Source: Promethearchaeota archaeon (GTDB taxonomy: Archaea > Asgardarchaeota > Lokiarchaeia > Sigyniarchaeales > SOKP01). Taken from it: 64,000 bases of DNA. Below are positions 710 to 35,081 of the stretch, one piece after another (position 1 is the stretch's first letter; every line of letters begins with the position of its first letter). The notes below the pieces were generated by a model. It did not search any database, was not told where the DNA came from, and saw nothing but the letters and a program-made list of their open reading frames with translations. Made by a program: the position numbers and the translations under genes. The DNA lies in NCBI GenBank assembly GCA_048939995.1, contig JBHLOY010000003.1, forward strand, positions 288,001-352,000, given 5' to 3'.

Positions 710-722
710 GGGTGTTAAAAGA

Positions 723-4580: not shown

Positions 4581-5297
4581 TCAGAATTTATAGATTACCT
4601 CAAAGGGTAAATCATTAAAAATATCTTCCGCAAGTTTTTTAAATTCTCCATCTAAGGCTTTATATCCCCTACAAGCATAATTCTTTAGAAGAAATTTAGT
4701 TGGTAGTAACTCCGATACTAATTTTTTCAATCCGAGTAAACTTTTCTGATTATCGTTAATTCCTTCTAAAATTACGCTTACTACGATTAGTTCTCCTTTA
4801 AATGTTTTTCTAAATAACCTCACCCCTTCAATTAAATCTTCTAAATAAATTCCCTCGTGTTGTCTACATATCTCTTGAAATTCATTTGGAATAACACTCA
4901 CGAGTTCAATTAACATTAAATCACACAAAGAACAATCTTCTCTTACTTCCTTGCGAGAAAGGAGGGAACCATTCGTTGAAATTCCAATTTTTATGTTTGG
5001 ATACATTCTTTTTATTAACATTGAAAGCTGTTTAAAAGACGCATAAAGAGTAGGTTCTCCAAATCCCGTCATCCAAACAATATTGGGTTCTCCTTTTAGT
5101 TCAATATATTCTCTAATTTCTCTAAAAATATCTCCAGGAGGATAAAATTCTTTTCTTTCAATGGTTTTATCTGTTGTTGGACCAGTTCCACAATAAATAC
5201 AATTAAAATTACATACTTTGAAAGGGTTAAAATTTATAGATAAAACTTTACCAAATCTACTGTCTTCTTTAAATCCCTTAACAAATTTCCACCCCAT
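4581..5297 (-). CDS. Radical SAM protein, COG0731-like (cassette copy 1, intact CxxxCxxC)
   Basis: CNFNCIYC, GFGEPTL, TNGSLL and GINDN motifs. Confidence 0.9.
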   Translation of the reverse strand: MGWKFVKGFKEDSRFGKVLSINFNPFKVCNFNCIYCGTGPTTDKTIERKEFYPPGDIFREIREYIELKGEPNIVWMTGFGEPTLYASFKQLSMLIKRMYPNIKIGISTNGSLLSRKEVREDCSLCDLMLIELVSVIPNEFQEICRQHEGIYLEDLIEGVRLFRKTFKGELIVVSVILEGINDNQKSLLGLKKLVSELLPTKFLLKNYACRGYKALDGEFKKLAEDIFNDLPFEVIYKF

Positions 5298-5321: not shown

Positions 5322-7862
5322 TTAATCTTCATCTGAATTTAATTCAAATTGCTTTATCTTTAATAAATAATTGTTAGCTTTCTTTAACCAATGCTCCTTT
5401 TTCTCCATTTCACATAAACATGAATGGGTGTAATCCTTCCCTTGTTCTAACATTTGGATGGATAGGTCATATTCTTTAAGATGATAGAAACAAATACCCA
5501 TTTTAATGAAAGTTTGATATACAAAAAACCCATAAGGCTCTAGACCTATAGCTGTTTTAAATAACTCGATTGCCTTCTTATAATGTTTAAATATCATTAA
5601 TATTTCTCCATACGAATCATGGTAATTTCCATTGTTTGGCTCTAAACTTACTAATTTTTCAGCTAAATCAATTGATTCTTTCTCACGATCTAGATAAGCT
5701 AAACCATAAACCATACTATTTACTAAATCATTGTCATCATGATATAATTCCATGAGTTTACTTAAAATTTCGTATGATTCCTCATATCTCTTCGGATCAT
5801 TTTCATAATAACCCATCTTAATCAACATATATGCTTTTTTATGCAATATATGCTTACTCTTGTCAGGAAACATAGGTAAAATTTCAGCTATCAATTCTAA
5901 TGCTTCATCAAATCTTTTGCCTAAGTTATACCCAAGTATCTTATTGTAGTAATAATCAATAATTTTAGGTCTTAACTCAATTGCCTCATCAATTGCTTCA
6001 AATGCTTCTTCAAATTGTCTTAACTCAAATAAAATTATTGCTTTTAACTGATAACATCGTGAGATGTTTAATTCACTTGACTCGAGAGAGATTGCCTCCT
6101 CGATTTCTTTGACAAACTTGTCTAATTTAACCTGATTTTTGTCCCATTCGAAAATAGTATTATATCCCAGTACCATTGCTCTATTCAAATGAGAAATAGG
6201 ATGATCGGAGTGAAAACTTATACTATCCTCTGAAATTTTGAATGCTTTCTTAAAATCCCCTATTGATAAATGTGAAAAGCTAAGAATAAATAAAATTACC
6301 GGTATAAGATCATTTCGGCCTAATTCCTCCAATTTATCAAGTTGTTTATCTAAAATTTCAATTGCTTCTTTCAGGTTACTATATAGACATAGAACAATTG
6401 ACTTTAATATGTACAACTCAACTTTTTTTGCATCAGATTTAAGTGCAGAACCAATTAGTTCCAAAGCTTTGTTCACATCTTTATTATCAATACAAGACAA
6501 CACTTCTTTAAATAATGGTTTAATGTCTTTGATATAATATTCTGCTAATGCTTTCAAAACTTCTGGATATAAATAATACCTTACTTCTTTCTGCCCTTTA
6601 AGAGGATGATCCAAATCTTCTGATTCAATAGTTCTGAGCATTAATGGGATATTTTCATAAATAAATCCCTCTAACTTATCAGAAGCATCTACTAACTGTT
6701 TCTCAGTTTCAACTTTATAGGATAAATATTTGATGTATTCTGGTAAAAATTCTTTTAGAGATCCCTTTAAATTTTTATGAAATAAATCATTGCAAATATC
6801 ATCAATAATATCATCAATTAAGGTATACATTGTATAATAAGGATATCCACTTAATTTATTTAGATAAGTAAATTTCGTTACATAATCGTCAACAATAGCT
6901 CGAAGCACCCGCTCAATTTTTTCATCTGACTGAAAATAAAAATGCTTATCACCATCAAATTTCAAACTCCAAAATTTAATCGGATAGATCTCCTTCTCTA
7001 CAATCTGATGAATATGAAATTTCAAGATGATCTCTTCAATATCATATCGTAAAGCAAATTCATCTGGAGAAATATATCTTGGATATGAATCAGGATGATT
7101 TATCGAGAAAAATAGTAATAACTTCTTGAAATCTTCCTCATCATCTAGTGAATTCTGCACTTTAGCATAATCCATCTTTAATACATTATTTAAAAATCGA
7201 AATTTTACATCCTTATCCTCAATACTATACTTTCTAAAGAATTCTCGCGTCTTTTTGGTGATCTCTTCAATCCTTTTACTCTCTTCCTCTAAAATAGATT
7301 GTCGGTCAAGATCATATAATCGTAACATGCGAGAATACTCTATTTTTCCCGCTTCTGTAATCTTATATCGCTTATTATCTTTCTGGACATAACTATTCTC
7401 CATTAATAGATTTAAATTTTTTGAGAGTGATGATTGGTTTATATAAACAGGTGTATTCTCCCTAAGAAAATCACTCCATTTGCAGTAACTATTATTGTAT
7501 AACATCCATAAGATCCAATGATCATAATTCCTCCTTCTTAAAACCGCTTTGGGAGGATAATTCAATCTCCTCTTTGATTTTTTCCGACGCGATAATTCAT
7601 GATACCTCTCTCTACCGGCATTTGTAATTATATAGATACCTCTCTTGATATTCTCTATATATCCTTTACTTTCTAACCGATTCTTGTAATTTGAAAGGGT
7701 TGATTGACTAATACTTACTGGATCTTCAGTAAAATGAGACCATTCACACTCATTATTATTATATAACATCCAAAGTATAATAAGCTCAAAATTTCTCTTA
7801 CCCATAGGAGAATTAGATAAAATTTCTTCAGGAGGCAAGTTTACTTGCTCACTTTTACTCAT
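5322..7862 (-). CDS. Tandem winged-helix + TPR putative transcriptional regulator (cassette copy 1)
   Basis: Two N-terminal ILWMLYNN..C.WS.F...I.QS.LS wHTH repeats and a C-terminal TPR array. The ATG at 7862 (MSKSEQV) matches the paralog N-termini better than 7937. Confidence 0.8.
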   Translation of the reverse strand: MSKSEQVNLPPEEILSNSPMGKRNFELIILWMLYNNNECEWSHFTEDPVSISQSTLSNYKNRLESKGYIENIKRGIYIITNAGRERYHELSRRKKSKRRLNYPPKAVLRRRNYDHWILWMLYNNSYCKWSDFLRENTPVYINQSSLSKNLNLLMENSYVQKDNKRYKITEAGKIEYSRMLRLYDLDRQSILEEESKRIEEITKKTREFFRKYSIEDKDVKFRFLNNVLKMDYAKVQNSLDDEEDFKKLLLFFSINHPDSYPRYISPDEFALRYDIEEIILKFHIHQIVEKEIYPIKFWSLKFDGDKHFYFQSDEKIERVLRAIVDDYVTKFTYLNKLSGYPYYTMYTLIDDIIDDICNDLFHKNLKGSLKEFLPEYIKYLSYKVETEKQLVDASDKLEGFIYENIPLMLRTIESEDLDHPLKGQKEVRYYLYPEVLKALAEYYIKDIKPLFKEVLSCIDNKDVNKALELIGSALKSDAKKVELYILKSIVLCLYSNLKEAIEILDKQLDKLEELGRNDLIPVILFILSFSHLSIGDFKKAFKISEDSISFHSDHPISHLNRAMVLGYNTIFEWDKNQVKLDKFVKEIEEAISLESSELNISRCYQLKAIILFELRQFEEAFEAIDEAIELRPKIIDYYYNKILGYNLGKRFDEALELIAEILPMFPDKSKHILHKKAYMLIKMGYYENDPKRYEESYEILSKLMELYHDDNDLVNSMVYGLAYLDREKESIDLAEKLVSLEPNNGNYHDSYGEILMIFKHYKKAIELFKTAIGLEPYGFFVYQTFIKMGICFYHLKEYDLSIQMLEQGKDYTHSCLCEMEKKEHWLKKANNYLLKIKQFELNSDED

Positions 7863-7956: not shown

Positions 7957-7974
7957 TTGAAGTTCGAACTTCAA
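7957..7974. promoter_or_regulatory. Perfect 18-bp palindrome, putative operator
   Basis: TTGAAGTTCGAACTTCAA in the divergent intergenic region; its TGAAGT-N4-ACTTCA core recurs at 34753-34768. Confidence 0.6.
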
Positions 7975-8058: not shown

Positions 8059-8319
8059 ATGGTACAAGTATATGAAAAGCATGGAATAGAAGACCTATTA
8101 GAGGTTAAAGCATGTGTAGTAGAGTCGCTCCCTGTAGTAGAGGAATGCACAGAATGCAGAGAAAGTAAAGAGGAGCAGAGCAAATCGCGATCATTTTTCA
8201 ATAGACTTTCAAAAAAGAACGTTAATTCCAAATCAAACGCTAAAATTTTAGAGGAGCAAGTCCATATCGACAAGCTCAAGCGTGGACTTCCTATTTCAGG
8301 GAGATTTTATATGGGCTAA
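8059..8319 (+). CDS. Small protein divergent from wHTH-TPR copy 1
   Basis: AAGGAG RBS upstream; the N-terminus MVQVYEK...LLEV resembles MVQVLEK...LVEV at 34866. Confidence 0.7.
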   Translation: MVQVYEKHGIEDLLEVKACVVESLPVVEECTECRESKEEQSKSRSFFNRLSKKNVNSKSNAKILEEQVHIDKLKRGLPISGRFYMG

Positions 8320-23308: not shown

Positions 23309-23659
23309 TCAAGTGTACATCCCATCTGGTGGAGGTTTGTAATACATATTTCTATAACTTCTACCGAATAAAAGTCTTAAAATTTCTTGTATCCGTAAAA
23401 AGTCATAATTTCCAAAAATATCGCTCATATCAATGTTTCGAGGGTCAAAACCTGCTTGATCATAGATTTGCCGCTTTATAGGGTCACTCAAGATATCGTA
23501 TGCCTCTTTTAATTCTATGAATTTATCCTTAGCTTTCGGATCTTTATTAAGATCTGGATGATATTTTTTTGCTAATTTTCGATATGCTATTTTAATTTCA
23601 CTTTCAGTAGCCTCTTTTTCAACACCAAGAATTTTATAATAATCTGCTTTTTTGTTCAT
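23309..23659 (-). CDS. Short J-domain (DnaJ-like) protein
   Basis: DYYKILGV...[11 protein letters not shown]...EAYDILSD; lacks the Zn-finger and C-terminal domains of full DnaJ. Confidence 0.9.
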
Positions 23660-23798: not shown

Positions 23799-24128
23799 TC
23801 AAAATAATAAATCAAGAGATATATCCTCAGGAGAAACAACAAATAGTAACTTTTTATTACTTAACCAATATCCTATTAGATAACCTTCTGAGCTTTTAAT
23901 CGTCAGTTGCTTAAAATTACCATTGTTCGTTTCGGAAACTATTCTTCTAGCAGCAGATAAAATCGCAAGTGCTATTCCCGCAATTTTTACATGTTCAATT
24001 TCTTGAGAAAGAGTTGAATTAAGAGGCATCCCCTCATTTGAAACAATTAATGCCTCTTTTATTTCAGGAAATTTTAAATATAATTTTTTCAAAATTTTTC
24101 GATGGGAACGAGCTTGAAACAACCTCAT
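23799..24128 (-). CDS. Roadblock/LC7 (MglB-like) domain protein
   Basis: IKEALIVSNEGMPL...IAGIALAILSAARRI...QLTIKSSEG pattern. Confidence 0.8.
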   Translation of the reverse strand: MRLFQARSHRKILKKLYLKFPEIKEALIVSNEGMPLNSTLSQEIEHVKIAGIALAILSAARRIVSETNNGNFKQLTIKSSEGYLIGYWLSNKKLLFVVSPEDISLDLLF

Positions 24129-24257: not shown

Positions 24258-24914
24258 TTAAAATCTAAATGACACCTTGAATGGAAGATCGTGAAAAATC
24301 TCTTTAAGTTTGGTCTTAAATTCATCAGAGACTGACTCTAAATCTTTACCTGTAAAAACATTTACTGAAAAATGATCTGGGGTAATCTCTAGTAAATATT
24401 TCTTCAAGTCTCGAACTGTATCTAAATCATCATTTACTCCCTTGAAAAACATAGTATAAATTCTAAAATTCCCTTTAAATTCTTTTCTAAAAATTCTAAT
24501 TCCCTTTAAAATTTCTTGAACGTTAAAGAAATCAAAACAAATGCAAGATTTATGAAAATTCGAAGGAGTAACAGAATTTAAGTTAATTACTATTAAATCA
24601 CATATCAAAAGTGCCTTTCGCACTTTTTCATAATTAAAAAGAGAACAATTAATATAAACTCCCATTTTCTGATTCGGAAAACTCTCCTTAATCTTATTAA
24701 GTAAGCGATTGAATCCAAAAAATAGGTTGATATCATTAATGCCTTTTAACCAGATGTAATCGGGACTTTCCTTTTTAAGAAAATAATCCTTTAACTCACT
24801 AAATATCTCTTCAGTGGGATAATACGGAATCTGATTATCAACATAATCAAAATCTACCGGTAAAACCTTCCCAAATTTAGAACTTGTTTGGAGTTCTTTT
24901 AAATGCAGATACAA
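24258..24914 (-). CDS. Degenerate radical SAM homolog lacking CxxxCxxC (cassette copy 2)
   Basis: Aligns along its length with 4581..5297 (FGKVL, PDYIW, FRKEFKG, GVND, DLPFKV), but the Cys triad segment is deleted. Confidence 0.8.
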   Translation of the reverse strand: MYLHLKELQTSSKFGKVLPVDFDYVDNQIPYYPTEEIFSELKDYFLKKESPDYIWLKGINDINLFFGFNRLLNKIKESFPNQKMGVYINCSLFNYEKVRKALLICDLIVINLNSVTPSNFHKSCICFDFFNVQEILKGIRIFRKEFKGNFRIYTMFFKGVNDDLDTVRDLKKYLLEITPDHFSVNVFTGKDLESVSDEFKTKLKEIFHDLPFKVSFRF

Positions 24915-24950
24915 TTCATCACCAGTGCTAAAAATAATTCTTTAGAAGTT

Positions 24951-27917
24951 TCAATCTTCAGATTTTTTATCGTACAAATCTTTATGAAATGAACTCATTA
25001 TTTCTGCCATCTTTTCCATTTTTTTAATCGATTTTTGTGCTTCCTCAATATTTCCAAGCTTTTCATGGCATATACTCATTTTACGATAAGTATCAGATAT
25101 ATACCATGCTGTAGGATTAATTCTTTCAGCCTCTCGTAGTTTTTCTAGTGCTTCTTCATACTTTCCTGATTCAATTAAAAGTTCTGCATACGTATCATAG
25201 GAATTCCCATCTTCAGGATCGCAACTTATTAATGTCTCTGCTGCTTCAAATGCTTCATTCATCCTATTTAATCTTAATAACATATATGCCCTATTATTCA
25301 AAAGTTCTTTATTATCTGGAAATTGTTTTAAAATTTCGTCTATATGATTTAATCCCTTATTGTAATCTTGAAGTTTATAATATATTAATGATTCTAATTT
25401 ACCTATACAATATCTTTGTTCTGGAAATTTATTGGTAATAGATTGACTTATTCCTATAGCTTCTTTATCTTTACCAAGTGACATCATGAGTAAGACTTTA
25501 GTTTTATAAAAATCAAAATCCATTGGATTTAACTTTATAGCTTCTTCAATAGCATTCAAAGCTTCTTCATTTAATCCCAGATCTCGCAATATAAAAGCCT
25601 CAGATTGTAGATAAAGTGCTTTCTTAAAATTAATCTTTTCAATATTTAAAGCATTATTGATACTCTCTTTAAAGTCATCAATAGTCAGATCATTTAATTC
25701 ACCACTATATATCAATGAATAACCAAAAACAAGGGCTTTTGAAAGGTAAGATATAGAATAATCTTGATACTTAATTTGGCTGATATTGGCAAAATCTAAC
25801 GCTTCCTTGAATCTATTACGAGCAATATATGAATACACTAAAATTAATATCGTAGAAGTATCTATTAGAGGATTTAATCCCCAAGGGTCAATAACAAAAT
25901 TTAATTCCTCTTTAATTATCTTTTCTGCCTCTCTATACTTCTTTGTAATACATAATATCAAAGCTTTTAGGATTAAAAGCTCTTTATCCAATGGTTTTAA
26001 TTTAATTGCATTATTTATCACTTCAAGAGGTTCTTTAGGTGATCTTGTACAAACACCTTCTGTGCAAACTATGGCTAAAAATTTTGTTCTTAATAGAAGA
26101 ATATTGTTTGGGAACTCAGAAATGGCTTTATTAATTACTTTGAGACCTTCAAGTTCTTGATCTTTTTTTATTAAAATTTGAGCTTTTTGGGCTATTAATG
26201 AAATATTAAACGCATTCTGAATCCCTTCTTCAACTACTTTTAATGACTTGTCTAAGAAATCCATTAAAAAGTAAGTCATTGACTGTAATAAATAGCCAAT
26301 ATAATTTTGTGGAAATTCTTGGATTATATGGTTTGTTATTTCAATTGATTCTTCGAATCTATGACCTACTGTTTTAATAATATCATTAACTACCAAACTT
26401 TCTATCTTGTCTAAATTCTGACTTTTATCATTAAATAGATTAAAAGCTTCATTAATCTTCCCATTTTTAAGCATTTGTATAATTTGACTAACAAATTCAC
26501 GATTTGATGCTTTAAAACCCTCTATGGTTTCAATATACTCAATATAATTCAATTTGCTTAAATAGAATAGATCCATTGATTCGAAAATTTGATAATACAA
26601 TGTATAATTCAATTCAGGCTCTTTCTCTAGAGTATTAGAAGCCTTAGAAGAAAAGGTCTCAAACTCTGCCGAAATTGTCTGCCAGATAAGACTTTCTAAT
26701 TTAGTCTCATCAGTTATTAACTTCTTTTCAGTTTCAATCTTGTATGCTAAATATTTTATATAGTTCGGTAAAAATTTCCTTAGAGTATCCTTTAAATTAT
26801 CATGAAATAAGTGATTACAAATTTCACTTAAGATATTTTCAATTATATTTGAAATGGTTAATGCTGGTGCCTTTTTGTTTGTATTCTCATATAAATTATT
26901 CAAATAGGTATATCGAGTTATATAATCATCTACAATTGCTCTTAAAACTCTCTCAATTTTTTCGTTCACTTGGAAATAATACACTTTATTAGGTGAAACC
27001 TCTAATTTGAAGAACTTTATTTCATAAAATTCTTCTTCCACTATTTTATCTATGAAGAAATTCAACGTCGTTTTCTTTAAATTAAAATCACTAGAAAATC
27101 TTTCAGGTGAAATATAATCTGGATATTGATTTGGATGATTTATTGATAAAAATAATAAGATTTTGTTAAAATCTTCTTCCTCTTCCAATAGGGTCTCTAC
27201 TCGAGAATAGTTTAATTTCAATACATTATTGAGAAATCTAAACTTAATTCTATCATCCTCTATTCCATATTCTTCAAAAAATTGGGTGCTAAATTTGGTA
27301 AATTCTTGAATATGCTTACTCTCTTCTTCTAATATTGATTGACGGTCTAATTCATATTCTCTTAGAACGTTAAAATATTCTGACTTACCCAATGGAGTTA
27401 TTTTATACTCTCTATTTTCATTAATAACAAAACCATTATCCATTAAGTAATTTAGAGCTCTCGATAATGAAGATTGATTTATTTTATAGAGGATTTCTTC
27501 AAATCTAATATCTTCTAAAAAGTCGGACCATTTACAAGCTTCATTATTATAAAGCATCCATAAAATCCAATGATTATATTCCCTTCTCTTTAATATAACT
27601 TGGGGAGGGTAATTTAGCCCTTTAGGGCCCTCTCTTCCATATTGTGTTAATTCCTTATATCTTTCTATACCTTCCTGAGTAATCTTATAATAATTACGTT
27701 CAGGCTTAATTATAAATCCTTTACCAATAAGCTTATCTAAATTCTGCGATAACGTTGAAGCAGGAATCTCGAGATTATCATCTGAATCATCAGTAAAATT
27801 AGACCATTCACAATGATCCTTTCCGTAAAGATTATCACTATTATATAATTTCCAAAGAATAATATATTCTGCAGAATTATTTGCGATTTTTGCAATCTGA
27901 ATTTTGGTTTTACTCAT
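24951..27917 (-). CDS. Tandem winged-helix + TPR putative regulator (cassette copy 2)
   Basis: WILWMLYNN..CKWSDF, INQSSLS, KFRFLNNVLK, SINHP.QYP and C-terminal TPRs. Confidence 0.85.
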   Translation of the reverse strand: MSKTKIQIAKIANNSAEYIILWKLYNSDNLYGKDHCEWSNFTDDSDDNLEIPASTLSQNLDKLIGKGFIIKPERNYYKITQEGIERYKELTQYGREGPKGLNYPPQVILKRREYNHWILWMLYNNEACKWSDFLEDIRFEEILYKINQSSLSRALNYLMDNGFVINENREYKITPLGKSEYFNVLREYELDRQSILEEESKHIQEFTKFSTQFFEEYGIEDDRIKFRFLNNVLKLNYSRVETLLEEEEDFNKILLFLSINHPNQYPDYISPERFSSDFNLKKTTLNFFIDKIVEEEFYEIKFFKLEVSPNKVYYFQVNEKIERVLRAIVDDYITRYTYLNNLYENTNKKAPALTISNIIENILSEICNHLFHDNLKDTLRKFLPNYIKYLAYKIETEKKLITDETKLESLIWQTISAEFETFSSKASNTLEKEPELNYTLYYQIFESMDLFYLSKLNYIEYIETIEGFKASNREFVSQIIQMLKNGKINEAFNLFNDKSQNLDKIESLVVNDIIKTVGHRFEESIEITNHIIQEFPQNYIGYLLQSMTYFLMDFLDKSLKVVEEGIQNAFNISLIAQKAQILIKKDQELEGLKVINKAISEFPNNILLLRTKFLAIVCTEGVCTRSPKEPLEVINNAIKLKPLDKELLILKALILCITKKYREAEKIIKEELNFVIDPWGLNPLIDTSTILILVYSYIARNRFKEALDFANISQIKYQDYSISYLSKALVFGYSLIYSGELNDLTIDDFKESINNALNIEKINFKKALYLQSEAFILRDLGLNEEALNAIEEAIKLNPMDFDFYKTKVLLMMSLGKDKEAIGISQSITNKFPEQRYCIGKLESLIYYKLQDYNKGLNHIDEILKQFPDNKELLNNRAYMLLRLNRMNEAFEAAETLISCDPEDGNSYDTYAELLIESGKYEEALEKLREAERINPTAWYISDTYRKMSICHEKLGNIEEAQKSIKKMEKMAEIMSSFHKDLYDKKSED

Positions 27918-28159
27918 AATTTGATTATTTTGCCTATGTTTCTCACTTAATTAATTTAAATATGAACTTCTATTTATATTTTATAGTCCGTTACTTCGTT
28001 CCAAACTATCCCGAACAAATGTACTCCGATCAGAAGTACGCATAAATAAACTAAATATAGAAGTATTTCTTAACTTTTAATAAGTGAAAAGAAGGATTTC
28101 TAAAAAAAAATAGTCTCCCAAAGAAAAGAACAATTCAAATTAGTGAGTGGAAAGAAAAA

Positions 28160-28528
28160 ATGAGCCAAAATGTCGCGATATCAAGATATACAGATTCATT
28201 AGCAGCTGTTGAAACCATTCTTGAAGATTATTGGAAACCTAAAATTATCCCTCTTGAAAGTTTGGAACAGAAGCCTAAAACTAAAGAAAATCTGCATGAT
28301 ACGATTGCGGCTCAAAAAAGTCTTACGTACACTATTACGTTAAATGTGACTATTTTAGTGAGTTCAATTGGAGGGCTCTTACTGTTGATAACAATTAGCC
28401 CGTTATTAATACCCTTTAATATAATAATAATAATGGCATTTGCATTGGTCCAAGCTTTAGTTATAATAAAAAGCGAGACTGAATGTATTATGAAAAAAAT
28501 TAAGAAGAGGATGAGTAGGACAAAATGA
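28160..28528 (+). CDS. Small two-TM protein divergent from wHTH-TPR copy 2
   Basis: 122-aa ORF with a hydrophobic hairpin. Confidence 0.6.
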   Translation: MSQNVAISRYTDSLAAVETILEDYWKPKIIPLESLEQKPKTKENLHDTIAAQKSLTYTITLNVTILVSSIGGLLLLITISPLLIPFNIIIIMAFALVQALVIIKSETECIMKKIKKRMSRTK

Positions 28529-28653
28529 ATGAAAATAGTAAGGATGTCTTATATAAGGTCACTTATGGCGTTATAACTCTTGCTACTATTGTTATAGCCG
28601 TCTATAGTTTAATATTTTTTATTGATTCATTAATGATTGCTTTTTCAAGTTAA
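28525..28653 (+). CDS. 42-aa single-TM peptide MNENSKDVLYKVTYGVITLATIVIAVYSLIFFIDSLMIAFSS (not in ORF track)
   Basis: ATGA overlap with the upstream stop codon; AGGA upstream. Confidence 0.5.
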   Translation: MNENSKDVLYKVTYGVITLATIVIAVYSLIFFIDSLMIAFSS

Positions 28654-28702
28654 ATTCTTTTCCAGATCCGTATTTTAACAGGCCACCTGAGTGAGGGAAA
28701 CC

Positions 28703-30949
28703 TCACTCTAGCCCTGTTTCTAAAAATTTCTTTTGGTTCTTTACTTTTTTAAATATAAGGATTGATACAATAAATAAAATACAATATAGAAACATCATGT
28801 TATATCCGGGCACTGTTTCATTGTCTTCATTGTCTTCTCCGTAATTGCAGAATTGATTATCTTTAAAAATATTTCCTATACAATCCAATTCTTTTACACA
28901 CTCAGTATTCCCAAAAATAATGTTTTCATAGATATAATTGTAATTACTATGATCAAGGAATATACTGCAGCTATTATTGTTTACAATGTTTCCTGATATA
29001 CTGTTGTAATTACTAAAATAAAGCTGTATTCCATACTGATTCTTGTTTACTATGTTTCCTAAAAAAGTATTAGAATGACTATAATGTAAGTAAATCCCAG
29101 GACCAGCATTATTGTTTGCAATTATTCCGGAAATTGTATTATTATTACAGTAGTATAATGACAGCCCTAATGAACAAAAAGAAAGAATTTGGGATAATAT
29201 CGTCGAGTTATTACAATTAACAAGAATAATTTGTCCTGCATTTACAAAATCATTTAATCCTAAATTAATTTCATTCTTGTAATAATATAGTGGTCTTCCA
29301 TTTACTAAATTTGTAGTATCTATATTATTGGAACTTAATTCATTTCTGGATCCATACAATCTTCCTAATCCGCACTCATTCATAATATTTCTTCTAAAAG
29401 TATTATTAAGGTTATAATATATAAACATCCCATATTGGCTATTGTTTATGATATTGTCAATAATTATACTATTCGTAGCAGAACCTAATTCTATTCCAAA
29501 ATTCTTATTATTAATTAGTTTATTTTGGGAAAAGAGGTTATCATCACCATACGATAAATATATCCCCTCAGTACTATTATTTATAGCGTTTTCCACTATA
29601 TCATTATGGTTGCAATTATATCCAAATGATATTCCACAATAATCTGCATATATAATATTTTTTAAAATCTTATTACGATCACTGCTCCATAAATCTATAC
29701 CAACGCCACAACCATCTAATTCATTATCTGAAATGAAGTTACCATGACAGTATCTCAATTCTATCCCATAAATGTTATTATTGTTTAAAATACTCCCTGA
29801 AATATTGTTTTGGTTGCTATAATAAAGCTTTATTCCGTACTGGTTATTGTTTAATGTGTTTCCTAAAAAAGTATTAGAATGACTATAATGTAAGTAAATC
29901 CCAGAACCCCTATTATTTTTTGCGATGATTCCCGAAATTGTATTATTCGTACAGTAGTATAATGATAGCCCCAAAGAACAAAAAGAAAGATTTTGGGATG
30001 ATACCATTGAGTTATTACAATTAACTAAAATAATCTGTCCTGCATTTAAAAAATCGTTTGATTCTAAATTAATTTCATTCTTGTAATAATATAATGGCTT
30101 TCCATTTACTAAATTTGTAGAATCTATATTATTGGAACTTAATTCCTCACTCGTTCCAGGTCCAAAGAAGTGTCCAAACCCGCATTCACTCATGATATTT
30201 TTTCTAAAAGTATTATTAAGGCTATGAGATAAGCTCATCCCCGAAAGACAACTATTAAGAATATTATCTAATATTACGTTATTCTCCGCAGAAACTAATC
30301 TTATACCTTCCTCCTTATAATTTACTCTATTTCCAGATACATTATTATTAGATCCAAAAATATGTATCCCTGCAATACCAATATTAACAACATTACCTAT
30401 AATTTTGTTCTTATTGCTATTAGCTAAATGTATGCCATAATCATTATTATTTACGTTGTTCTCTTTAATAGTATTATTATTACTATTCTCTAAGTTTATT
30501 CCTTTTCGGTTATATGAACAGTTATTTCTAATTACCATTCCATTATTAACTCCGAACAAGTTTATTCCCGCATCCTTGGTGTACCATTCACTGCCAGAAT
30601 TATAAATCGTGCAATTTTCAATTTTAAAATATACGTTAGAATTTTCAATAATGATACAGCTTCCTAATCCTCCACCATCTATTATTAAGTCTTCAATATA
30701 GTAAGGATCAGTAAATGTGCCTGAACCAGTGCAGTTGCCAGCATTTCTAAAAGCAACCCAGCCAGAATTATCGATAATGCGGATTCTTACAGAACTTCTG
30801 GAACTAATTAGATTTTCTAATCTTATTTCAGAGTTACCTGTATATTCATCCCTATTATCAAGGTGATAATTTAAATTGAAATTTACCAGAGAAAATAATA
30901 GAAATGTAACTCCTAAGGTTATGAAAATAACTTTTATTCTAGATTTCAT
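28703..30949 (-). CDS. Cell-surface parallel beta-helix (NosD/CASH) protein with C-terminal PGY-TM anchor
   Basis: Signal peptide, GSGTFTDPYYIE, many GI.L..S.NN.I..N repeats, duplicated TNLVNG(K/R)PLYYYKNEINL...AGQIILVNC block, and VPGYN + TM + basic tail. Confidence 0.85.
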   Translation of the reverse strand: MKSRIKVIFITLGVTFLLFSLVNFNLNYHLDNRDEYTGNSEIRLENLISSRSSVRIRIIDNSGWVAFRNAGNCTGSGTFTDPYYIEDLIIDGGGLGSCIIIENSNVYFKIENCTIYNSGSEWYTKDAGINLFGVNNGMVIRNNCSYNRKGINLENSNNNTIKENNVNNNDYGIHLANSNKNKIIGNVVNIGIAGIHIFGSNNNVSGNRVNYKEEGIRLVSAENNVILDNILNSCLSGMSLSHSLNNTFRKNIMSECGFGHFFGPGTSEELSSNNIDSTNLVNGKPLYYYKNEINLESNDFLNAGQIILVNCNNSMVSSQNLSFCSLGLSLYYCTNNTISGIIAKNNRGSGIYLHYSHSNTFLGNTLNNNQYGIKLYYSNQNNISGSILNNNNIYGIELRYCHGNFISDNELDGCGVGIDLWSSDRNKILKNIIYADYCGISFGYNCNHNDIVENAINNSTEGIYLSYGDDNLFSQNKLINNKNFGIELGSATNSIIIDNIINNSQYGMFIYYNLNNTFRRNIMNECGLGRLYGSRNELSSNNIDTTNLVNGRPLYYYKNEINLGLNDFVNAGQIILVNCNNSTILSQILSFCSLGLSLYYCNNNTISGIIANNNAGPGIYLHYSHSNTFLGNIVNKNQYGIQLYFSNYNSISGNIVNNNSCSIFLDHSNYNYIYENIIFGNTECVKELDCIGNIFKDNQFCNYGEDNEDNETVPGYNMMFLYCILFIVSILIFKKVKNQKKFLETGLE

Positions 30950-31026
30950 ATTTCGCTAGCAATTGGTATTTACCAATAATAAATATTCTAAGTGGCAATT
31001 TAAATCTTATCTTTCTATTAGAAATC

Positions 31027-31686
31027 TTAGAATGTGAATGAAACTTTAAAAGGAAGGTTTTTAAGAATATCTTTAGCTTTATTCTTAAATTCATCAGAAA
31101 TAGATTCAAACCCATTCCCTGTAAAAGTATTCACTGAAAAATGGTCAGGTTTAATATCCAACAAAAATGTTTTTAGGTCTAGCATATCGTTAAGATTATC
31201 GTTGACACCGTCTATGAGTATCGCATACACCCTAAAACGACCTTCAAACTCTTTTCGGAAAGTTTTAATCCCATCTAGGATAGCTTGAACATTTACTTCC
31301 TCATCACATACACAAGATTTAAAAAAAGTTAATGGATTTACTGTATTCAAATTAGTGACGATTAGATCACATTGGGAGAGTTCTTTACGAACTATTTTAT
31401 ATCGAAATAATGAACAATTAACATACACTCCCAATTTCTGGTTAGGAAATTCTCTTTTTACTCTTTTAAGCAATTCTTGAAATCCATAAAATAGTTCCAT
31501 ATTTTTGACTCCTTTTAACCAGATATAATCTGGTTTTCCCTTCTTTTTGAAATAATCTTTAATTTCAGAGAATATAGCCTCTACAGGATAAAATTGAATT
31601 GACTCCTCGTTAGATTTAAGATTAATTGGTAAAATTTTTCCAAATTTCGAATTAATTTGCATCTCTTTTAAATGTATATACCCCAA
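31027..31686 (-). CDS. Degenerate radical SAM homolog lacking CxxxCxxC (cassette copy 3)
   Basis: Close paralog of 24258..24914 (HLKE.Q..SKFGK, PDYIWLKG, NCSLF, KSC.C, PDHFSVN.FTG). Confidence 0.8.
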   Translation of the reverse strand: MGYIHLKEMQINSKFGKILPINLKSNEESIQFYPVEAIFSEIKDYFKKKGKPDYIWLKGVKNMELFYGFQELLKRVKREFPNQKLGVYVNCSLFRYKIVRKELSQCDLIVTNLNTVNPLTFFKSCVCDEEVNVQAILDGIKTFRKEFEGRFRVYAILIDGVNDNLNDMLDLKTFLLDIKPDHFSVNTFTGNGFESISDEFKNKAKDILKNLPFKVSFTF

Positions 31687-31704
31687 TTACTCACCTAAAT
31701 GCTT

Positions 31705-34659
31705 TTAATTATACATATCTTTTATTAATGGTAATGTCTTTCCTTTTACCTCATTCATTTTTTTAAAGCATTTTTTAGCTTCCTCTGTATTACCAAGATT
31801 TTTATAACATTCTCCCATTTTGCGGTAGGTTTCAAAAATATACCATCCTGAGGGATTGATTTCAATCGCTTTTTCAAATTTCTCTATCGCACTTTCATAT
31901 CTTTTCAGTTCCATCAAAATTTCTCCATAAGTATCATAAGAATTTCCTTCTTCGGGATCAATTTCTATTAATTTCTCTATTGTTTCAAGTGCTTCTTCTA
32001 ATCTGTTCAATTTAACTAATATTAATGCTTTATTATTTTGCAGTGGCTTGTTATTCGGATCCTCAGCAAGAACTTCATCAATAGCATTTAAACCCGAATT
32101 ATAATCTTTTATCTTAAAATATATGAATGATTTAAGCAGGTTCATTTTAAGCAAATGTTTTGGGAAATTTTCAATTATCAGATCAATGAGCCTAATTGCT
32201 TCATTGTCTCTATTCATTGCAATCATGAAAATAACTTTTGATTTATAATAGTCTATATCCCTATCATTCAGTTTAATTGCCTCATCTATTGCATCTATCG
32301 CATCTTGATGTTTTCCAATCTGATTTAATATTATGGCTTTTAATTGGTAGTACATAGCTCTATTAAATTTGAGAGGATCAATTAAAGCTTTATCTATTTC
32401 AGTATTGAAATCATCTAAAGTAACTCCTTCTAGATTGCCATTGTAAATAAGAGAATAACCAAACACAAGAGCATTTATTACAAAAGAAATTGGATTATTT
32501 GGATAAGTAGCTAAGCATTGATTTGCCACTTTTAATGCATCACCAAACCTGCCACGCCCTATATATGAGTGAGCTAAAAGTAATAAGGCAGAAGTATCAA
32601 TAAGCGGATTCGGTTCAAAAGGATTTATTGCAAAATTCAATTCATCTTTAATAATATTTTCTGCATCTTTAAATTTTGAATTAAGACTAAATAGTGCTGC
32701 TTTTAAGATTATCAAATCCTTATTCATTGGTTTTAACTTAATAGCTGTCTCAATCAAATTCACGGGTTTTTCAAAGTTTTTTTGGCAGAATTCTACTTGT
32801 TTAACCATTGCTGAAAACTTGGTGCGCAATAATAAGACATTATTAGGGTTCTTGGAAATTGCTTTTTCAATGATCTTTTGGCCTTCCTCTTCTTCATCTT
32901 TTCTAATGAGAATCTGAGTCTTTTGGGCGATTAAAACAAAATTATATGCATTTTTTATTCCTTGTTCAATTATATCTAATGATTTCTCTAAATCATTCAT
33001 CAAGAAATAAGTAATTGATTGAAATAAGTAACCTAAATAATCTTTAGGTCTTTTTTCGATTAATTTATCAGTAATTTCAATTGACTCTTGAAATCTAAAT
33101 TGTGAGGTATAAATTAAATCTTGAAATATCAATTTTTCAATTTCGTTTAATTTATCTTGTCTATTATTAAATAGAGATAGTACATCACTAAAATCACCTT
33201 TTCTTAAAATTTGTACAAATTCATCTAATAATTCTAAGTTGGATGGAGAAATCTCATCATAACTTTCAATATATTCTATAAAGTCTAACTTATATAAGTA
33301 AAATATATTTAGCGTCTCAAAGAACTCATTATTAAGCACATAACTTACTTCACCTTCCTTTTCTTGGCTCTCAGAAGGTCTAATTGAAAATGCCTCAAAT
33401 TCAGTTGAGATTGCCTGCCAAATTAAACTTTCTAATTTAGATTCATCGGTTACCAATTTTTTCTCGGTTCCAATCTTATATGCTAAATCCTTTATATATT
33501 GTGGTAAAAATCTCAAGAAAGCATCTTTTAAATCCTCATGGAATAAAATTACGCAGCCTTCACTTACTATTTTATTAATTATAGAACTAATATCGATAGA
33601 GGAAGGTTTATCACTTACAAATTCGCTTAATTTGTTCAAATATGTGAATTTCGTTATTTTTTCATCTACTGATGCCCTTAACATTCTTTCAAGTTTTTCA
33701 TTTTCCTGAAAGTAAAGTTCTTTACTGGGAAATACATCTAATTTGAAGAATTTTGTATCATAGAGATCTTGATCTACTATTTTTTGTATGAAAAATTTTA
33801 AGGTGTTTATATCAATATCATATTCGGAAGAAAATTGTTCAATTGATATGTATTTTGGATATTGATCCGGGTGATTCATAGATAAAAACAAGAGAATTTT
33901 GTAAAACTCTTCTTTATCTTCAACCATTGTTTTGACTTTTGCATAATCTAATTTTATTATGTTATTCAAGAACCTGAATTTTACATCATCATCTTTAATT
34001 TGATAAGCCTTAAAGAAATCAATAGTTTCTCTTGTAATTTGCTCAATTCTTTTACTTTCTTCCTCTAAAAGTGATTGGCGATCTAAATCATATGACTTTA
34101 GTATCTTTAGATATTCAGTTTCTCCTAAAGAAGTAATTACGTAATCTTTATTGTTGTTCTTTTGAATATAACCACTTTCTATCAATGAATTTAGACTGTT
34201 AGATAGAGAGGATTGATTGATAGATAGCGGCTCATCCTTGAAATCAGACCATCTACATGAATTATTATTATATAGCATCCATAGAATGCAATGTTCATAG
34301 TTTCTCTTATTTATAATCAACCTTGGTGGATAATTTAGTTTACTTTCTACTTCATCCTTTTTCCTGGATAATTCAAAGAGCCGTTCTTTTCCCTTAGAAG
34401 TAATTTTATAAACATTACAAATTCTTTCATTTTTTTTCTTAGAGACTTTCATAATATAACCTCCATCCATTAAGCGATTTAACCAATTAGAAAGAGTGGA
34501 TTGACTTATATTGACTGGATCATTTGTAAAGTGAGACCATTCCAACTCCTCATTATAATTTAGCATCCAAAGAATAATTTGATCGAATCTTTTTTTACTA
34601 AATGGAGGGGGAGAGATTATTTCATCAGGTGGATAAGATATAATATCTGTTATACCCAT
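31705..34659 (-). CDS. Tandem winged-helix + TPR putative regulator (cassette copy 3)
   Basis: Two ILWML.NN..WS.F...I.QS.LS wHTH repeats, conserved middle domain and C-terminal TPRs. Confidence 0.85.
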   Translation of the reverse strand: MGITDIISYPPDEIISPPPFSKKRFDQIILWMLNYNEELEWSHFTNDPVNISQSTLSNWLNRLMDGGYIMKVSKKKNERICNVYKITSKGKERLFELSRKKDEVESKLNYPPRLIINKRNYEHCILWMLYNNNSCRWSDFKDEPLSINQSSLSNSLNSLIESGYIQKNNNKDYVITSLGETEYLKILKSYDLDRQSLLEEESKRIEQITRETIDFFKAYQIKDDDVKFRFLNNIIKLDYAKVKTMVEDKEEFYKILLFLSMNHPDQYPKYISIEQFSSEYDIDINTLKFFIQKIVDQDLYDTKFFKLDVFPSKELYFQENEKLERMLRASVDEKITKFTYLNKLSEFVSDKPSSIDISSIINKIVSEGCVILFHEDLKDAFLRFLPQYIKDLAYKIGTEKKLVTDESKLESLIWQAISTEFEAFSIRPSESQEKEGEVSYVLNNEFFETLNIFYLYKLDFIEYIESYDEISPSNLELLDEFVQILRKGDFSDVLSLFNNRQDKLNEIEKLIFQDLIYTSQFRFQESIEITDKLIEKRPKDYLGYLFQSITYFLMNDLEKSLDIIEQGIKNAYNFVLIAQKTQILIRKDEEEEGQKIIEKAISKNPNNVLLLRTKFSAMVKQVEFCQKNFEKPVNLIETAIKLKPMNKDLIILKAALFSLNSKFKDAENIIKDELNFAINPFEPNPLIDTSALLLLAHSYIGRGRFGDALKVANQCLATYPNNPISFVINALVFGYSLIYNGNLEGVTLDDFNTEIDKALIDPLKFNRAMYYQLKAIILNQIGKHQDAIDAIDEAIKLNDRDIDYYKSKVIFMIAMNRDNEAIRLIDLIIENFPKHLLKMNLLKSFIYFKIKDYNSGLNAIDEVLAEDPNNKPLQNNKALILVKLNRLEEALETIEKLIEIDPEEGNSYDTYGEILMELKRYESAIEKFEKAIEINPSGWYIFETYRKMGECYKNLGNTEEAKKCFKKMNEVKGKTLPLIKDMYN

Positions 34660-34752: not shown

Positions 34753-34768
34753 TGAAGTACTGACTTCA
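34753..34768. promoter_or_regulatory. Palindrome TGAAGT-ACTG-ACTTCA, putative operator
   Basis: Same arms and spacing as the core of 7957-7974, in the equivalent divergent intergenic region. Confidence 0.6.
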
Positions 34769-34865: not shown

Positions 34866-35081
34866 ATGGTTCAAGTATTAGAAAAGCCCCAGGAAATAGT
34901 TTTAGTTGAAGTTCCTGAGGTTAAAAAGGAAGTAAAAGCCAGTAAGATTCAAGAAATAAAAGCAAAACTTAGTCGAGTAAAAGACTATGCTAAAAAGCAT
35001 GAATATTACTTGAATATAAAAGACGTTAAAACCGAAATGGCTACAAATTCCTATGGCATGAGACTATTTAGGAATTATTAA
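34866..35081 (+). CDS. Small protein divergent from wHTH-TPR copy 3
   Basis: MVQVLEK N-terminus shared with 8059..8319; followed by a T-rich terminator-like tract. Confidence 0.7.
   Translation: MVQVLEKPQEIVLVEVPEVKKEVKASKIQEIKAKLSRVKDYAKKHEYYLNIKDVKTEMATNSYGMRLFRNY

What the first reader, a model, noticed from the sequence alone, without database searches (positions are those of the whole stretch)
24258..31686. Radical SAM pseudoenzymes that lost CxxxCxxC but share a different cysteine set
Copies 2 and 3 delete the segment carrying CNFNCIYC and replace the GEP SAM-binding motif (WMTGFGEP becomes WLKGINDI / WLKGVKNM). Yet both are intact ORFs, conserved with each other, and share four Cys (NCSLF, CDL, KSC[IV]C). 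They pair with the longer 984-988 aa regulators, while the intact enzyme pairs with the shorter one. Inference: the barrel has been repurposed as a non-catalytic sensor or co-regulator, perhaps with a new metal or redox site.
Basis: partly seen in the sequence, partly recalled or inferred. Interest (0 to 1): 0.72.

Follow-up and report, generated by a model that had tools for sequence, protein, structure and literature searches.

The report
Cluster-less radical SAM partner proteins
Two small genes in this Asgard archaeon descend from a radical SAM enzyme that has lost its iron-sulfur and SAM-binding parts; selection has kept them, always next to one long DNA-binding TPR protein, so they most likely act as non-catalytic partner or sensor subunits, though no function has been measured.

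Summary
Copies 2 (24258-24914) and 3 (31027-31686) lack the CxxxCxxC loop through a 19-residue deletion and lack the GGE motif. Copy 1 (4581-5297) has both.

- **Fold:** an AlphaFold model (pLDDT 92) is a full radical SAM barrel (Z 16 to RlmN, 15.6 to PFL-AE).
- **Family:** the cluster-less form is one clade (100/100), found only in one Promethearchaeota (Loki-type) family. That is about 29 of 68 genomes sampled there.
- **Selection:** dN/dS is 0.07-0.25, the same as for the intact sisters. These are not decaying copies.
- **Pairing:** every cluster-less gene sits 14-100 nt downstream of a roughly 980-1010 aa wHTH-TPR protein. Intact sisters follow a roughly 845 aa form. The long form carries about 140 extra residues of TPR, and the two gene trees mirror each other.
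- **Cysteines:** the "four Cys" set is not conserved as such, and two of the four are ancestral. However, all 49 members keep at least two Cys in the former active-site region.
- **Not tested:** sensor or co-regulator function, metal binding and Cys geometry.

This scan earlier noted an analogous cluster-less radical SAM paired with a TetR regulator on other DNA.

The parts
24258..24914 (-). Cluster-less radical SAM-fold protein, copy 2 (218 aa, TTG start)
   Evidence: It has a 19-residue deletion of the CxxxCxxC loop and GINDI in place of GFGEP. The AF2 model has pLDDT 92.3 and matches RlmN at Z 16.2 and PFL-AE at Z 15.6. The stop-to-stop frame is 227 codons.
31027..31686 (-). Cluster-less radical SAM-fold protein, copy 3 (219 aa, TTG start)
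   Evidence: It is 60% identical to copy 2 and has the same deletion. It falls in the same 100/100 clade.
24918..24923 (-). GGTGAT Shine-Dalgarno-like site, 3 nt before the TTG start of copy 2, within the 36-nt gap after the regulator stop
   Evidence: Read directly from the sequence. No terminator-like site lies between the regulator and copy 2.
31691..31696 (-). AGGTGA Shine-Dalgarno-like site, 4 nt before the TTG start of copy 3, within the 18-nt gap after the regulator stop
   Evidence: Read directly from the sequence.
24951..27917 (-). Long wHTH-wHTH-wH-TPR protein (988 aa), partner of copy 2
   Evidence: Pfam finds HTH_45 and MarR-type wHTH plus many TPR families. The AF2 model has pLDDT 82, with three winged-helix units, helical linkers and a roughly 14-repeat TPR superhelix. 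The TPR part resembles APC/C, OGT and TTC7 scaffolds. About 140 extra residues (roughly 505-660) are present relative to the short form.
31705..34659 (-). Long wHTH-TPR protein (984 aa), partner of copy 3
4581..5297 (-). Intact radical SAM paralogue, copy 1 (238 aa), with CNFNCIYC, GFGEP and R-x-H
   Evidence: Pfam PF04055 scores 61.3 bits. It belongs to the sister clade of the cluster-less clade.
5322..7862 (-). Short wHTH-TPR protein, partner of copy 1 (846 aa from the start used by orthologues; the ORF call runs to 7937)
34866..35081 (+). Divergent 71 aa 'MVQ' small protein of module 3 (conserved N-terminus and AK.HEE.I.I.K motif, variable aromatic/Arg tail)
   Evidence: The same family lies 155-230 nt upstream of the regulator in 14 of 16 rSAM-linked modules examined, though the L042 copy is only a 27-aa ORF sharing just the N-terminus and L047 had only 240 nt of upstream sequence to search. 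It is absent from the seven regulators without a co-directional rSAM gene.
8059..8319 (+). Divergent 86 aa 'MVQ' small protein of the intact module 1
34753..34768 (.). Palindrome TGAAGT-N4-ACTTCA between regulator 3 and its MVQ gene
   Evidence: The window holds 3 matches at up to 1 mismatch, against 0.23 expected. Two exact matches lie in the two divergent intergenic regions.
7958..7973 (.). The same palindrome between regulator 1 and its MVQ gene
   Evidence: It is also present in the orthologous intergenic region of L046.
23799..24128 (-). Roadblock/LC7 protein (109 aa) downstream of copy 2
   Evidence: Pfam Robl_LC7 E-value 4e-12. A homologue follows the cluster-less gene in 4 loci.
28703..30949 (-). 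NosD/beta-helix protein (748 aa), 78 nt downstream of copy 3
   Evidence: Pfam NosD E-value 1e-57. A homologue lies downstream of the cluster-less gene in L043.

Best explanation
Copies 2 and 3 belong to a small family restricted to one archaeal lineage. The family arose when a two-gene module, a wHTH-TPR protein followed by a small radical SAM enzyme, was duplicated once.

In one daughter module the enzyme lost the whole [4Fe-4S] loop, the GGE SAM-binding motif and an invariant R-x-H. Its partner gained about five extra TPR helix pairs. The resulting protein can no longer perform radical SAM chemistry (shown at sequence level).

It is kept as an intact barrel under purifying selection and is co-transcribed with the long wHTH-TPR protein (shown).

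I infer that it works as a non-catalytic binding or sensing subunit of that protein. The former SAM pocket keeps invariant Asn/Asp residues and now always carries at least two Cys. I propose that this pocket binds a ligand, a redox signal or the tail of the co-inherited 'MVQ' small protein. The extra TPRs would be the docking surface, and the output would be DNA binding at the divergent promoter.
For: - **Loss of catalytic parts:** the deletion is present in 49 of 49 members. In the intact sisters the N-P before the cluster loop, the GGE glycine and glutamate, R125 and H127 have zero entropy. In this clade those positions reach 2.1-2.75 bits.
- **Fold kept:** pLDDT 92.3; Foldseek E 5e-8 to PFL-AE; VIA Z 16.2, 15.6 and 15.4 over residues 1-218.
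- **Selection:** dN/dS is 0.07-0.25 in 56 pairs, against 0.08-0.18 in the intact sisters.
- **Single origin:** the clade has 100/100 support and is sister to the regulator-linked intact clade.
- **Strict synteny:** 30 of 30 loci lie downstream of the long form. Gaps are 18-36 nt with GGTGA sites and no terminator.
- **Co-divergence:** the regulator tree mirrors the rSAM tree, with the long clade at 100 and the short clade at 100.
- **Extra TPR block:** it occurs only in the long forms.
- **Pocket still constrained:** N89, N111, N113 and N161 are invariant. The I-N-L-N strand is tighter than in the intact sisters. The top-of-barrel face is more conserved than the rest (p = 0.016).
- **Cys rule:** at least two Cys in 49 of 49 members, with compensation. 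C90 is present in 22 of 22 members whose loop has one Cys. The loop has two or more Cys in 14 of 14 members that lack C90.
- **No conserved enzyme partner:** nothing enzymatic is conserved downstream. Intact modules carry an ATC_hydrolase-like gene, DJ-1 and sometimes a second rSAM.
- **MVQ gene:** it is co-inherited with both module types and is absent from regulators without an rSAM gene.
Against: - No interaction, ligand or DNA-binding data exist.
- No fused regulator-rSAM form was found, though that search was weak.
- Five of the eight regulator paralogues in this genome work without any rSAM partner. The barrel is therefore not needed for the regulator's basic function and could simply be the first gene it controls.
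- Module 2 in this window lacks the MVQ gene.
- The conserved polar pocket and the Cys pair would fit a new enzymatic activity equally well.
- The Cys compensation pattern is partly phylogenetic, because one genus supplies most of the 'C90 plus one loop Cys' cases.
- The 3D proximity of the Cys residues could not be measured.
Confidence: 0.5

Rival explanations
1. Metal or redox sensor. The newly fixed Cys residues (position 90 after the TNG-type Asn, and the CxC, CC, CxxC or single Cys after helix 4) bind Zn, an Fe-S cluster or form a reversible disulfide in the old active site. The protein would then report metal or redox state to the wHTH-TPR partner. This is a specific form of the main explanation and is the first reader's own suggestion.
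For: - At least two Cys lie in this region in 49 of 49 members. Intact relatives have none in 28 of 44 and one in 12 of 44.
- Deep branches show CxCxC, CX5CX3C and CxxC variants.
- C126 replaces the residue next to the lost invariant Arg, and C90 replaces the Gly of N-G-S. Both positions are expected at the top of the barrel.
- Thioredoxin genes recur near some modules.
Against: - No Cys position is invariant (C126 94%, C90 79%; C90 71% in the larger set), and Cys positions and spacing vary between subclades.
- Two Cys alone do not make a typical metal site.
- The distances between the Cys residues were not measurable here.
Confidence: 0.2
2. A new non-radical enzyme. The barrel keeps a polar pocket (invariant Asn/Asp) and uses a Cys nucleophile or Cys pair for different chemistry on a small molecule or on the MVQ protein tail.
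For: - Constraint on pocket residues is strong: N111 and N113 are invariant, more so than in the intact sisters.
- dN/dS is as low as for real enzymes.
- TIM-like barrels often change chemistry (general knowledge).
Against: - No conserved enzyme partners or transporter lie in the operon.
- The Cys positions drift.
- There are no hits to any enzyme family in Pfam, NCBIfam or PADLOC.
Confidence: 0.15
3. Co-transcribed cargo unrelated to regulation. The barrel is a structural or chaperone-like protein that is merely the first gene under the regulator's control.
For: - Most regulator paralogues lack any rSAM partner.
- No fusions were found.
- The genes downstream are variable.
Against: - Adjacency is 30 of 30, the trees mirror each other, and the TPR gain coincides with the cluster loss.
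- The gaps are very short and carry SD-like sites.
Confidence: 0.1
4. Decaying pseudogenes, or an assembly or annotation artefact.
For: One relative (G222:C231) has an in-frame TGA and covers only residues 58-218.
Against: - There are 49 intact full-length members across roughly 29 genomes.
- dN/dS is 0.07-0.25.
- The clade is deep, with paths of more than 1 change per site.
- The model is a confident fold.
Confidence: 0.01

Closest known systems
Minimal radical SAM enzymes of the PFL-AE, viperin, MoaA and NifB type (PF04055 core only)
   Same: - The same (beta/alpha)6 partial barrel and a similar size. Z is 15.6 to PFL-AE, 15.4 to NifB and 14.6 to viperin.
- The strand-end motifs are retained: x-N-x-S-L after beta3, I-N-L-N on beta4 and G-I-N-D after beta5.
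   Different: - There is no CxxxCxxC, no GGE and no R-x-H.
- The Pfam score is below threshold.
- The parent subfamily itself is uncharacterised. No NCBIfam model reaches its cut-off, and sources label it UPF0026 or 'wyosine synthetase, COG-type'.
DhaQ-DhaS of Lactococcus lactis, a catalytically dead DhaK paralogue that binds ligand and co-activates a TetR-type regulator
   Same: A dead paralogue of an enzyme is encoded next to a transcription factor and is thought to act as its ligand-sensing subunit.
   Different: - The fold, the regulator class (wHTH-TPR rather than TetR) and the domain of life all differ.
- No biochemistry exists for the proteins here.
Cluster-less radical SAM paralogue paired with a TetR regulator
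   Same: A radical SAM homologue without the cluster motif is under selection and always travels with one regulator.
   Different: - That protein is 341 aa, in a different lineage, and its partner is a different regulator family.
- Homology to this clade was not tested here.
RRNPP-type peptide receptors (Rgg, PlcR, AimR) and the radical SAM RiPP operons they control in streptococci
   Same: - A DNA-binding domain is joined to a TPR array.
- A small divergent gene has a conserved front part and a variable C-terminal tail.
- A radical SAM gene sits in the module.
- MFS exporters recur nearby.
   Different: - The DNA-binding domains are winged helix rather than XRE-type HTH.
- The TPR array is a roughly 14-repeat superhelix like APC/C or OGT scaffolds.
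- The rSAM has no SPASM, twitch or RRE domain.
- The small protein has no signal sequence.
- In the papers found, RRNPP systems are described only for Gram-positive bacteria and their phages.

Membership tests
Radical SAM superfamily (functional enzyme, PF04055/SFLD sense) | Partial or full (beta/alpha) TIM-barrel core | tested here: met
   AF2 pLDDT 92.3. VIA Z 16.2 to RlmN and 15.6 to PFL-AE over residues 1-218. Foldseek E 5.5e-8.
Radical SAM superfamily (functional enzyme, PF04055/SFLD sense) | Three-Cys motif (CxxxCxxC or a variant) after beta1 that binds the [4Fe-4S] cluster | tested here: not met
   A 19-residue deletion removes it in copies 2 and 3 and in all 49 clade members. The reading frames are too short to hide it.
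Radical SAM superfamily (functional enzyme, PF04055/SFLD sense) | GGE motif that binds the SAM amino group | tested here: not met
   G-x-G-E-P is invariant in the intact sisters. Here it is GINDI or GVKNM, and in deep branches SPNEL, TTPTS or NLRSN.
Radical SAM superfamily (functional enzyme, PF04055/SFLD sense) | Pfam PF04055 score above the gathering threshold | tested here: not met
   19.2 bits against a 29.5 cut-off. Copy 1 scores 61.3.
Radical SAM superfamily (functional enzyme, PF04055/SFLD sense) | Reductive cleavage of SAM | not testable with these tools
   This needs anaerobic biochemistry.
Radical SAM superfamily (by descent) | Sequence and tree placement inside a clade of bona fide radical SAM proteins | tested here: met
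   33-35% identity to copy 1. The clade is sister to the intact clade at 99/92, with bacterial and Asgard intact outgroups. A profile search returns radical SAM proteins only.
Pseudoenzyme (operational definition) | Homologue of an enzyme that lacks the catalytic or cofactor residues | tested here: met
Pseudoenzyme (operational definition) | Maintained by purifying selection | tested here: met
   NG86 dN/dS 0.07-0.25 in 56 pairs.
Pseudoenzyme (operational definition) | Shown to lack catalytic activity | not testable with these tools
   This needs assays. A new non-radical activity is not excluded.
Viperin/pVip antiviral radical SAM | Family HMM score (NCBIfam NF038283 cut-off 180 bits; PADLOC pVip models carry no stated cut-off) | tested here: not met
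   Copies 2 and 3 have no hit. Copy 1 scores 34-36 bits, far below the NCBIfam cut-off of 180.
Radical SAM RiPP maturase (SPASM/twitch or RRE-bearing) | C-terminal SPASM or twitch domain, or an RRE | tested here: not met
   The proteins are 218-238 aa and core only. There are no SPASM or RRE hits in Pfam or NCBIfam.
RRNPP-like peptide receptor module | HTH plus TPR receptor with an adjacent small pro-peptide gene | tested here: inconclusive
   wHTH plus TPR is shown. An adjacent conserved small gene with a variable tail is shown. Secretion, processing and binding are untested, and the TPR array is much longer than in RRNPP proteins.

The most novel reading that the evidence does not exclude
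The three-gene unit (a divergent 'MVQ' small protein with a conserved front and a variable aromatic/Arg tail, a wHTH-TPR protein, and a small radical SAM) is an archaeal counterpart of bacterial peptide-signalling and RiPP circuits.

In this reading the intact enzyme modifies the tail. After duplication, one lineage turned the maturase into a cluster-less, thiol-bearing receptor subunit. That subunit docks on the added TPRs and senses the peptide or a redox state rather than modifying it.

This would be both the first described radical SAM pseudoenzyme with a defined partner and a peptide-receptor system in Asgard archaea.
Probability: 0.2. Interest if true: 0.8.

Novelty: new variant of a known kind. 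Interest (0 to 1): 0.62.

Why it matters
Radical SAM is one of the largest enzyme superfamilies, and membership is normally defined by the three-Cys cluster motif. Five literature searches found no described case of a conserved, selected radical SAM barrel without the cluster.

This clade is a clean natural experiment:
- It has a single origin.
- An intact sister module sits in the same genome.
- The partner protein changed at the same node.
- At least two new Cys are always present in the old active site.

It offers a way to ask what a radical SAM barrel can do without its cofactor. It also gives a concrete handle on an uncharacterised family of wHTH-TPR proteins and small proteins in the archaea closest to eukaryotes.

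The limits are real. The clade is confined to one family of uncultured Promethearchaeota, and no function has been measured.

Tried and rejected
Context was obtained through the genome search and the fetch from genomes instead.
- **Cys clustering in 3D** could not be tested. Structure prediction returns no coordinates and /data holds none.
- **Fused regulator-rSAM proteins:** none were found among longer proteins. This is weak evidence.
- **Known families for the parent enzyme:** no NCBIfam model reaches its cut-off. There are only weak viperin, MoaA and TYW1-like scores, and a sequence search of the PDB gave E of 0.1 or worse.
- **Defence system:** PADLOC gives nothing for the cluster-less copies.
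- **Literature:** nothing relevant was found for radical SAM pseudoenzymes, UPF0026/COG0731, or Asgard with radical SAM and TPR.
- **P0040** looked like a second Cys loss but is an N-truncated fragment of an intact enzyme. It keeps GSGEPTL and R-H-H.
- **Other 'no motif' hits:** apart from nine hits (six full-length, P0008 and P0082-P0086, and three incomplete, P0091, P0100 and P0139), the 'no motif' hits in the 150 best profile matches are N-truncated fragments that still carry the G-x-G-E-P motif where it is in range.
- **Dependence on an intact sister in trans** is rejected. Many genomes carry the cluster-less module without the roughly 240 aa intact form.
- **Long-regulator-specific conserved Cys** that could complete a shared metal site: none were found. 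The invariant Cys residues are common to all paralogues.
- **The palindrome TGAAGT-N4-ACTTCA** is not conserved beyond the closest orthologue.

Full report
**What is in the sequence**

The window carries three paralogous two-gene modules on the minus strand. Each is a large wHTH-TPR protein followed, 18-36 nt later, by a small radical SAM-type gene.
- Module 1 is 5322-7862/7937 plus 4581-5297. Its small protein has CNFNCIYC and GFGEP and scores 61.3 bits on Pfam Radical_SAM.
- Modules 2 (24951-27917 plus 24258-24914) and 3 (31705-34659 plus 31027-31686) have small proteins of 218 and 219 aa. They align to copy 1 at 33-35% identity.
- Copies 2 and 3 have one 19-residue gap that removes the cluster loop. 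They carry GINDI or GVKNM in place of GFGEP.
- They score only 19.2 bits on Pfam, below the 29.5 threshold.
- Their stop-to-stop frames are 227 and 219 codons, so nothing is hidden upstream.
- Both start at TTG, 3-4 nt after a GGTGA-type site. No terminator-like site separates them from the regulator.

One slip: the 748 aa gene between modules 2 and 3 is a NosD/beta-helix protein, not a regulator.

**The fold**

An AlphaFold2 model of copy 2, built on a 30-sequence alignment, has pLDDT 92.3 and pTM 0.89. It shows the strand-helix order of a (beta/alpha)6 barrel. Foldseek puts PFL-AE, NifB, lipoyl synthase, viperin and RlmN on top, with E down to 5.5e-8. VIA-align gives Z 16.2 to RlmN, 15.6 to PFL-AE and 15.4 to NifB over residues 1-218. 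The protein is a complete radical SAM barrel without its cofactor loop.

**How widespread and how old**

- A search of 5.8 billion proteins found 27 clusters at 43-94% identity. All came from Promethearchaeota or Thorarchaeota-labelled MAGs, and all lack the motif.
- A profile search of 1.84 billion representatives found only about six full-length cluster-less 50%-identity clusters. The other 'motif-less' hits are N-truncated fragments that still carry G-x-G-E-P.
- In 300 genomes of the phylum, full-length matches occur only in the window's own family. That is two genera and about 29 of 68 genomes sampled.
- All named records are uncultured MAGs.
- A 66-sequence maximum-likelihood tree gives the cluster-less proteins as one clade (100/100, 34 rows). 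It is sister (99/92) to the intact regulator-linked clade. Intact roughly 310 aa bacterial and Asgard relatives lie outside.
- The single apparent exception, P0040, is an N-truncated intact enzyme.
- One deep member (P0085) still reads NPFKSC before the gap. It keeps the first Cys of the old motif, which marks the edge of the deletion.

**Selection**

Nei-Gojobori dN/dS for 56 within-clade pairs with unsaturated dS is 0.07-0.25. Seven intact-clade pairs give 0.08-0.18. One relative, in G222, has an in-frame TGA and may be a real pseudogene.

**What changed in the protein**

Column statistics show a clear shift in constraint. Positions with zero entropy in the intact sisters become free in this clade, at 2.1-2.75 bits:
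- the N-P before the cluster loop;
- the glycine and glutamate of the GGE motif;
- the S-L after the TNG-type Asn;
- R and H of an R-x-H after helix 4.

Deep branches have lost even the first Gly of GGE. Canonical SAM binding is therefore gone, not only the cluster.

Some positions are tighter than in the sisters. The beta4 strand I-N-L-N becomes invariant, and N89, G138, N161 and P179 stay invariant. Residues at the C-terminal ends of the strands, the old active-site face, are more conserved than the rest (Mann-Whitney p = 0.016). The pocket is still under constraint.

**The cysteines**

- The CDL Cys is ancestral, present in 80% of intact sisters.
- The first Cys of KSC[IV]C is also ancestral, present in 47% of sisters and in only 35% of this clade.
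- Two Cys are clade-specific gains. C90 replaces the Gly of N-G-S (79% here, and Gly in 100% of sisters). C126 is at 94% here, where sisters have His and outgroups Pro.

A broader rule does hold. Count Cys at position 90 plus segment 114-129. All 49 full-length members have at least two: 33 have two, 14 have three and 2 have four. Among 44 intact relatives, 28 have none, 12 have one and 4 have two.

The pattern is compensatory. If the loop has one Cys, C90 is present (22 of 22). If C90 is absent, the loop has two or more Cys (14 of 14), arranged as CxC, CC, CxxC, CxCxC or CX5CX3C. These counts are not phylogenetically independent.

By alignment to NifB and viperin-like structures, both sites map to motifs that line the SAM site. 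That they lie close in space is my inference. No coordinates were available to measure it.

**The partner**

All 30 cluster-less loci recovered lie directly downstream of a roughly 980-1010 aa homologue of regulators 2 and 3. Close intact sisters lie downstream of a roughly 845 aa homologue of regulator 1. The long form equals the short form plus about 140 residues (regulator 2 residues about 505-660), inserted at the start of the TPR array.

An AlphaFold model of the 988 aa protein (pLDDT 82) shows two N-terminal winged helices, a coiled-coil helix, a third winged-helix-like unit, helical linkers and a roughly 14-repeat TPR superhelix. The closest solved folds for the TPR part are protein-binding scaffolds: APC/C subunits, OGT and TTC7.

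In a regulator tree the rSAM-linked forms are one clade (99). It splits into a short clade with intact partners (100) and a long clade with cluster-less partners (100). The internal branching mirrors the rSAM tree. So the module duplicated once, and the cluster loss and the TPR gain map to the same branch.

This genome has eight paralogues of the regulator. Five have no rSAM partner.

**Wider module**

A divergent 70-86 aa gene lies 155-230 nt upstream of the regulator in 14 of 16 rSAM-linked modules examined, of both types. One of these, L042, is only a 27-aa ORF sharing the N-terminus. L047 had only 240 nt of upstream sequence to search. Module 2 of this window lacks it. Its features are:
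- an M-[VA]-Q N-terminus;
- a conserved AK.HEE.I.I.K motif;
- a variable aromatic/Arg-rich tail.

It is missing from all seven regulators that have no co-directional rSAM gene.

An exact TGAAGT-N4-ACTTCA palindrome sits in the divergent intergenic regions of modules 1 and 3.

Genes downstream differ by module type:
- Intact rSAM genes are followed by an ATC_hydrolase-like gene, a DJ-1/PfpI gene and, in some genomes, a second rSAM.
- Cluster-less genes are followed by variable genes: Roadblock/LC7 in 4 loci, a NosD-like protein in 2, and otherwise nothing conserved.

The intact module therefore looks biosynthetic, and the cluster-less one does not.

**Interpretation**

Shown:
- loss of cluster-binding and SAM-binding elements;
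- a retained fold;
- purifying selection;
- a single origin;
- obligate adjacency to, and co-divergence with, a partner that changed at the same node.

Inferred:
- The protein is a non-catalytic partner or sensor subunit of the long wHTH-TPR protein.
- The old pocket, now bearing thiols, is the sensing site.
- The added TPRs are the docking surface.

I put this at about 0.5. The rivals are:
- a metal or redox-sensor version (0.2);
- a new non-radical enzyme (0.15);
- unrelated co-transcribed cargo (0.1);
- decay (0.01 or less).

**Comparison with known systems**

By descent this is a member of the radical SAM superfamily. It fails every functional membership criterion except the fold.

I found no paper describing a conserved cluster-less radical SAM barrel. 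The parent subfamily is itself uncharacterised. Its bacterial relatives are often fused to an ArsR-type wHTH.

The nearest functional analogy is a dead enzyme paralogue serving as co-regulator, such as DhaQ-DhaS (from my own knowledge).

The module layout also recalls RRNPP and radical SAM RiPP circuits. It differs from them in DNA-binding fold, TPR length and the absence of SPASM or RRE domains.

**Verdict**

This is a real, selected, lineage-restricted radical SAM pseudoenzyme, or at least a cluster-less derivative, co-evolving with a TPR-extended DNA-binding partner. It is a new variant of a known kind. Its function is unmeasured.

Noticed in passing
window 8059-8319 (+) and 34866-35081 (+); L034, L036-L043, L045, L046, L050: A family of 70-86 aa small proteins has an M-[VA]-Q N-terminus, a conserved AK.HEE.I.I.K motif and a variable aromatic/Arg-rich C-terminal tail. 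It is always divergent from the rSAM-linked regulators and absent from regulators without an rSAM gene. The layout resembles a leader plus core.
   Followed up: partly
window 7958-7973 and 34753-34768: An exact palindrome TGAAGT-N4-ACTTCA lies in the two divergent intergenic regions (0.23 expected by chance at up to 1 mismatch). Outside this genome it is conserved only in the closest orthologue (L046).
   Followed up: partly
window 3749-4564 (-) and 3144-3713 (-): Downstream of the intact rSAM are an ATC_hydrolase-family protein (271 aa, Cys-rich C-terminus with CCDCC) and a DJ-1/PfpI protein. In G057 the same operon continues with a second intact rSAM. G099 and G141 have two tandem intact rSAM genes.
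   Followed up: partly
window 23799-24128 (-) and 23309-23659 (-): A Roadblock/LC7 protein and a 116 aa J-domain-like protein follow cluster-less copy 2. A Roadblock homologue follows the cluster-less gene in 4 loci.
   Followed up: partly
window 28703-30949 (-): A 748 aa NosD/right-handed beta-helix protein with an N-terminal and a C-terminal hydrophobic segment and an internal duplication lies 78 nt downstream of copy 3. A homologue lies downstream of the cluster-less gene in G049 (L043).
   Followed up: no
window 2-709 (+) and 696-2009 (+); many loci: An MFS_3-type transporter (about 430 aa, 14 copies across the loci examined) and a roughly 315 aa coiled-coil/RHH-like protein recur next to both intact and cluster-less modules.
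   Followed up: no
window 5322-5420 (C-terminus of the short regulator): Short regulators (with intact partners) end with a conserved C-x-C (6 of 6). Long regulators lack it (0 of 11).
   Followed up: no
window 8362-8433 (+); L046, L050, and variants in L040-L043: A 23 aa micropeptide gene (ending ...NPAYI.Y) lies beyond the MVQ gene. Related roughly 20-27 aa ORFs with an (I/V)(I/V)I.N core occur upstream of other modules.
   Followed up: no
G000:C6:59620-60129 (L004:1198-2145) and bacterial relatives P0063, P0067: The parent rSAM subfamily has a near-universal roughly 315 aa Asgard paralogue. In bacteria it is often fused to a C-terminal ArsR-type wHTH (HTH_5 in 25% of one Atlas cluster). The link between this rSAM family and winged-helix domains may therefore be old.
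   Followed up: partly
G222:C231:3851-4333 (L033): One cluster-less homologue has an in-frame TGA and matches only residues 58-218. It may be a pseudogene or an assembly error.
   Followed up: no
window 55888-63999 (+): An open reading frame of more than 2704 aa runs off the window end.
   Followed up: no
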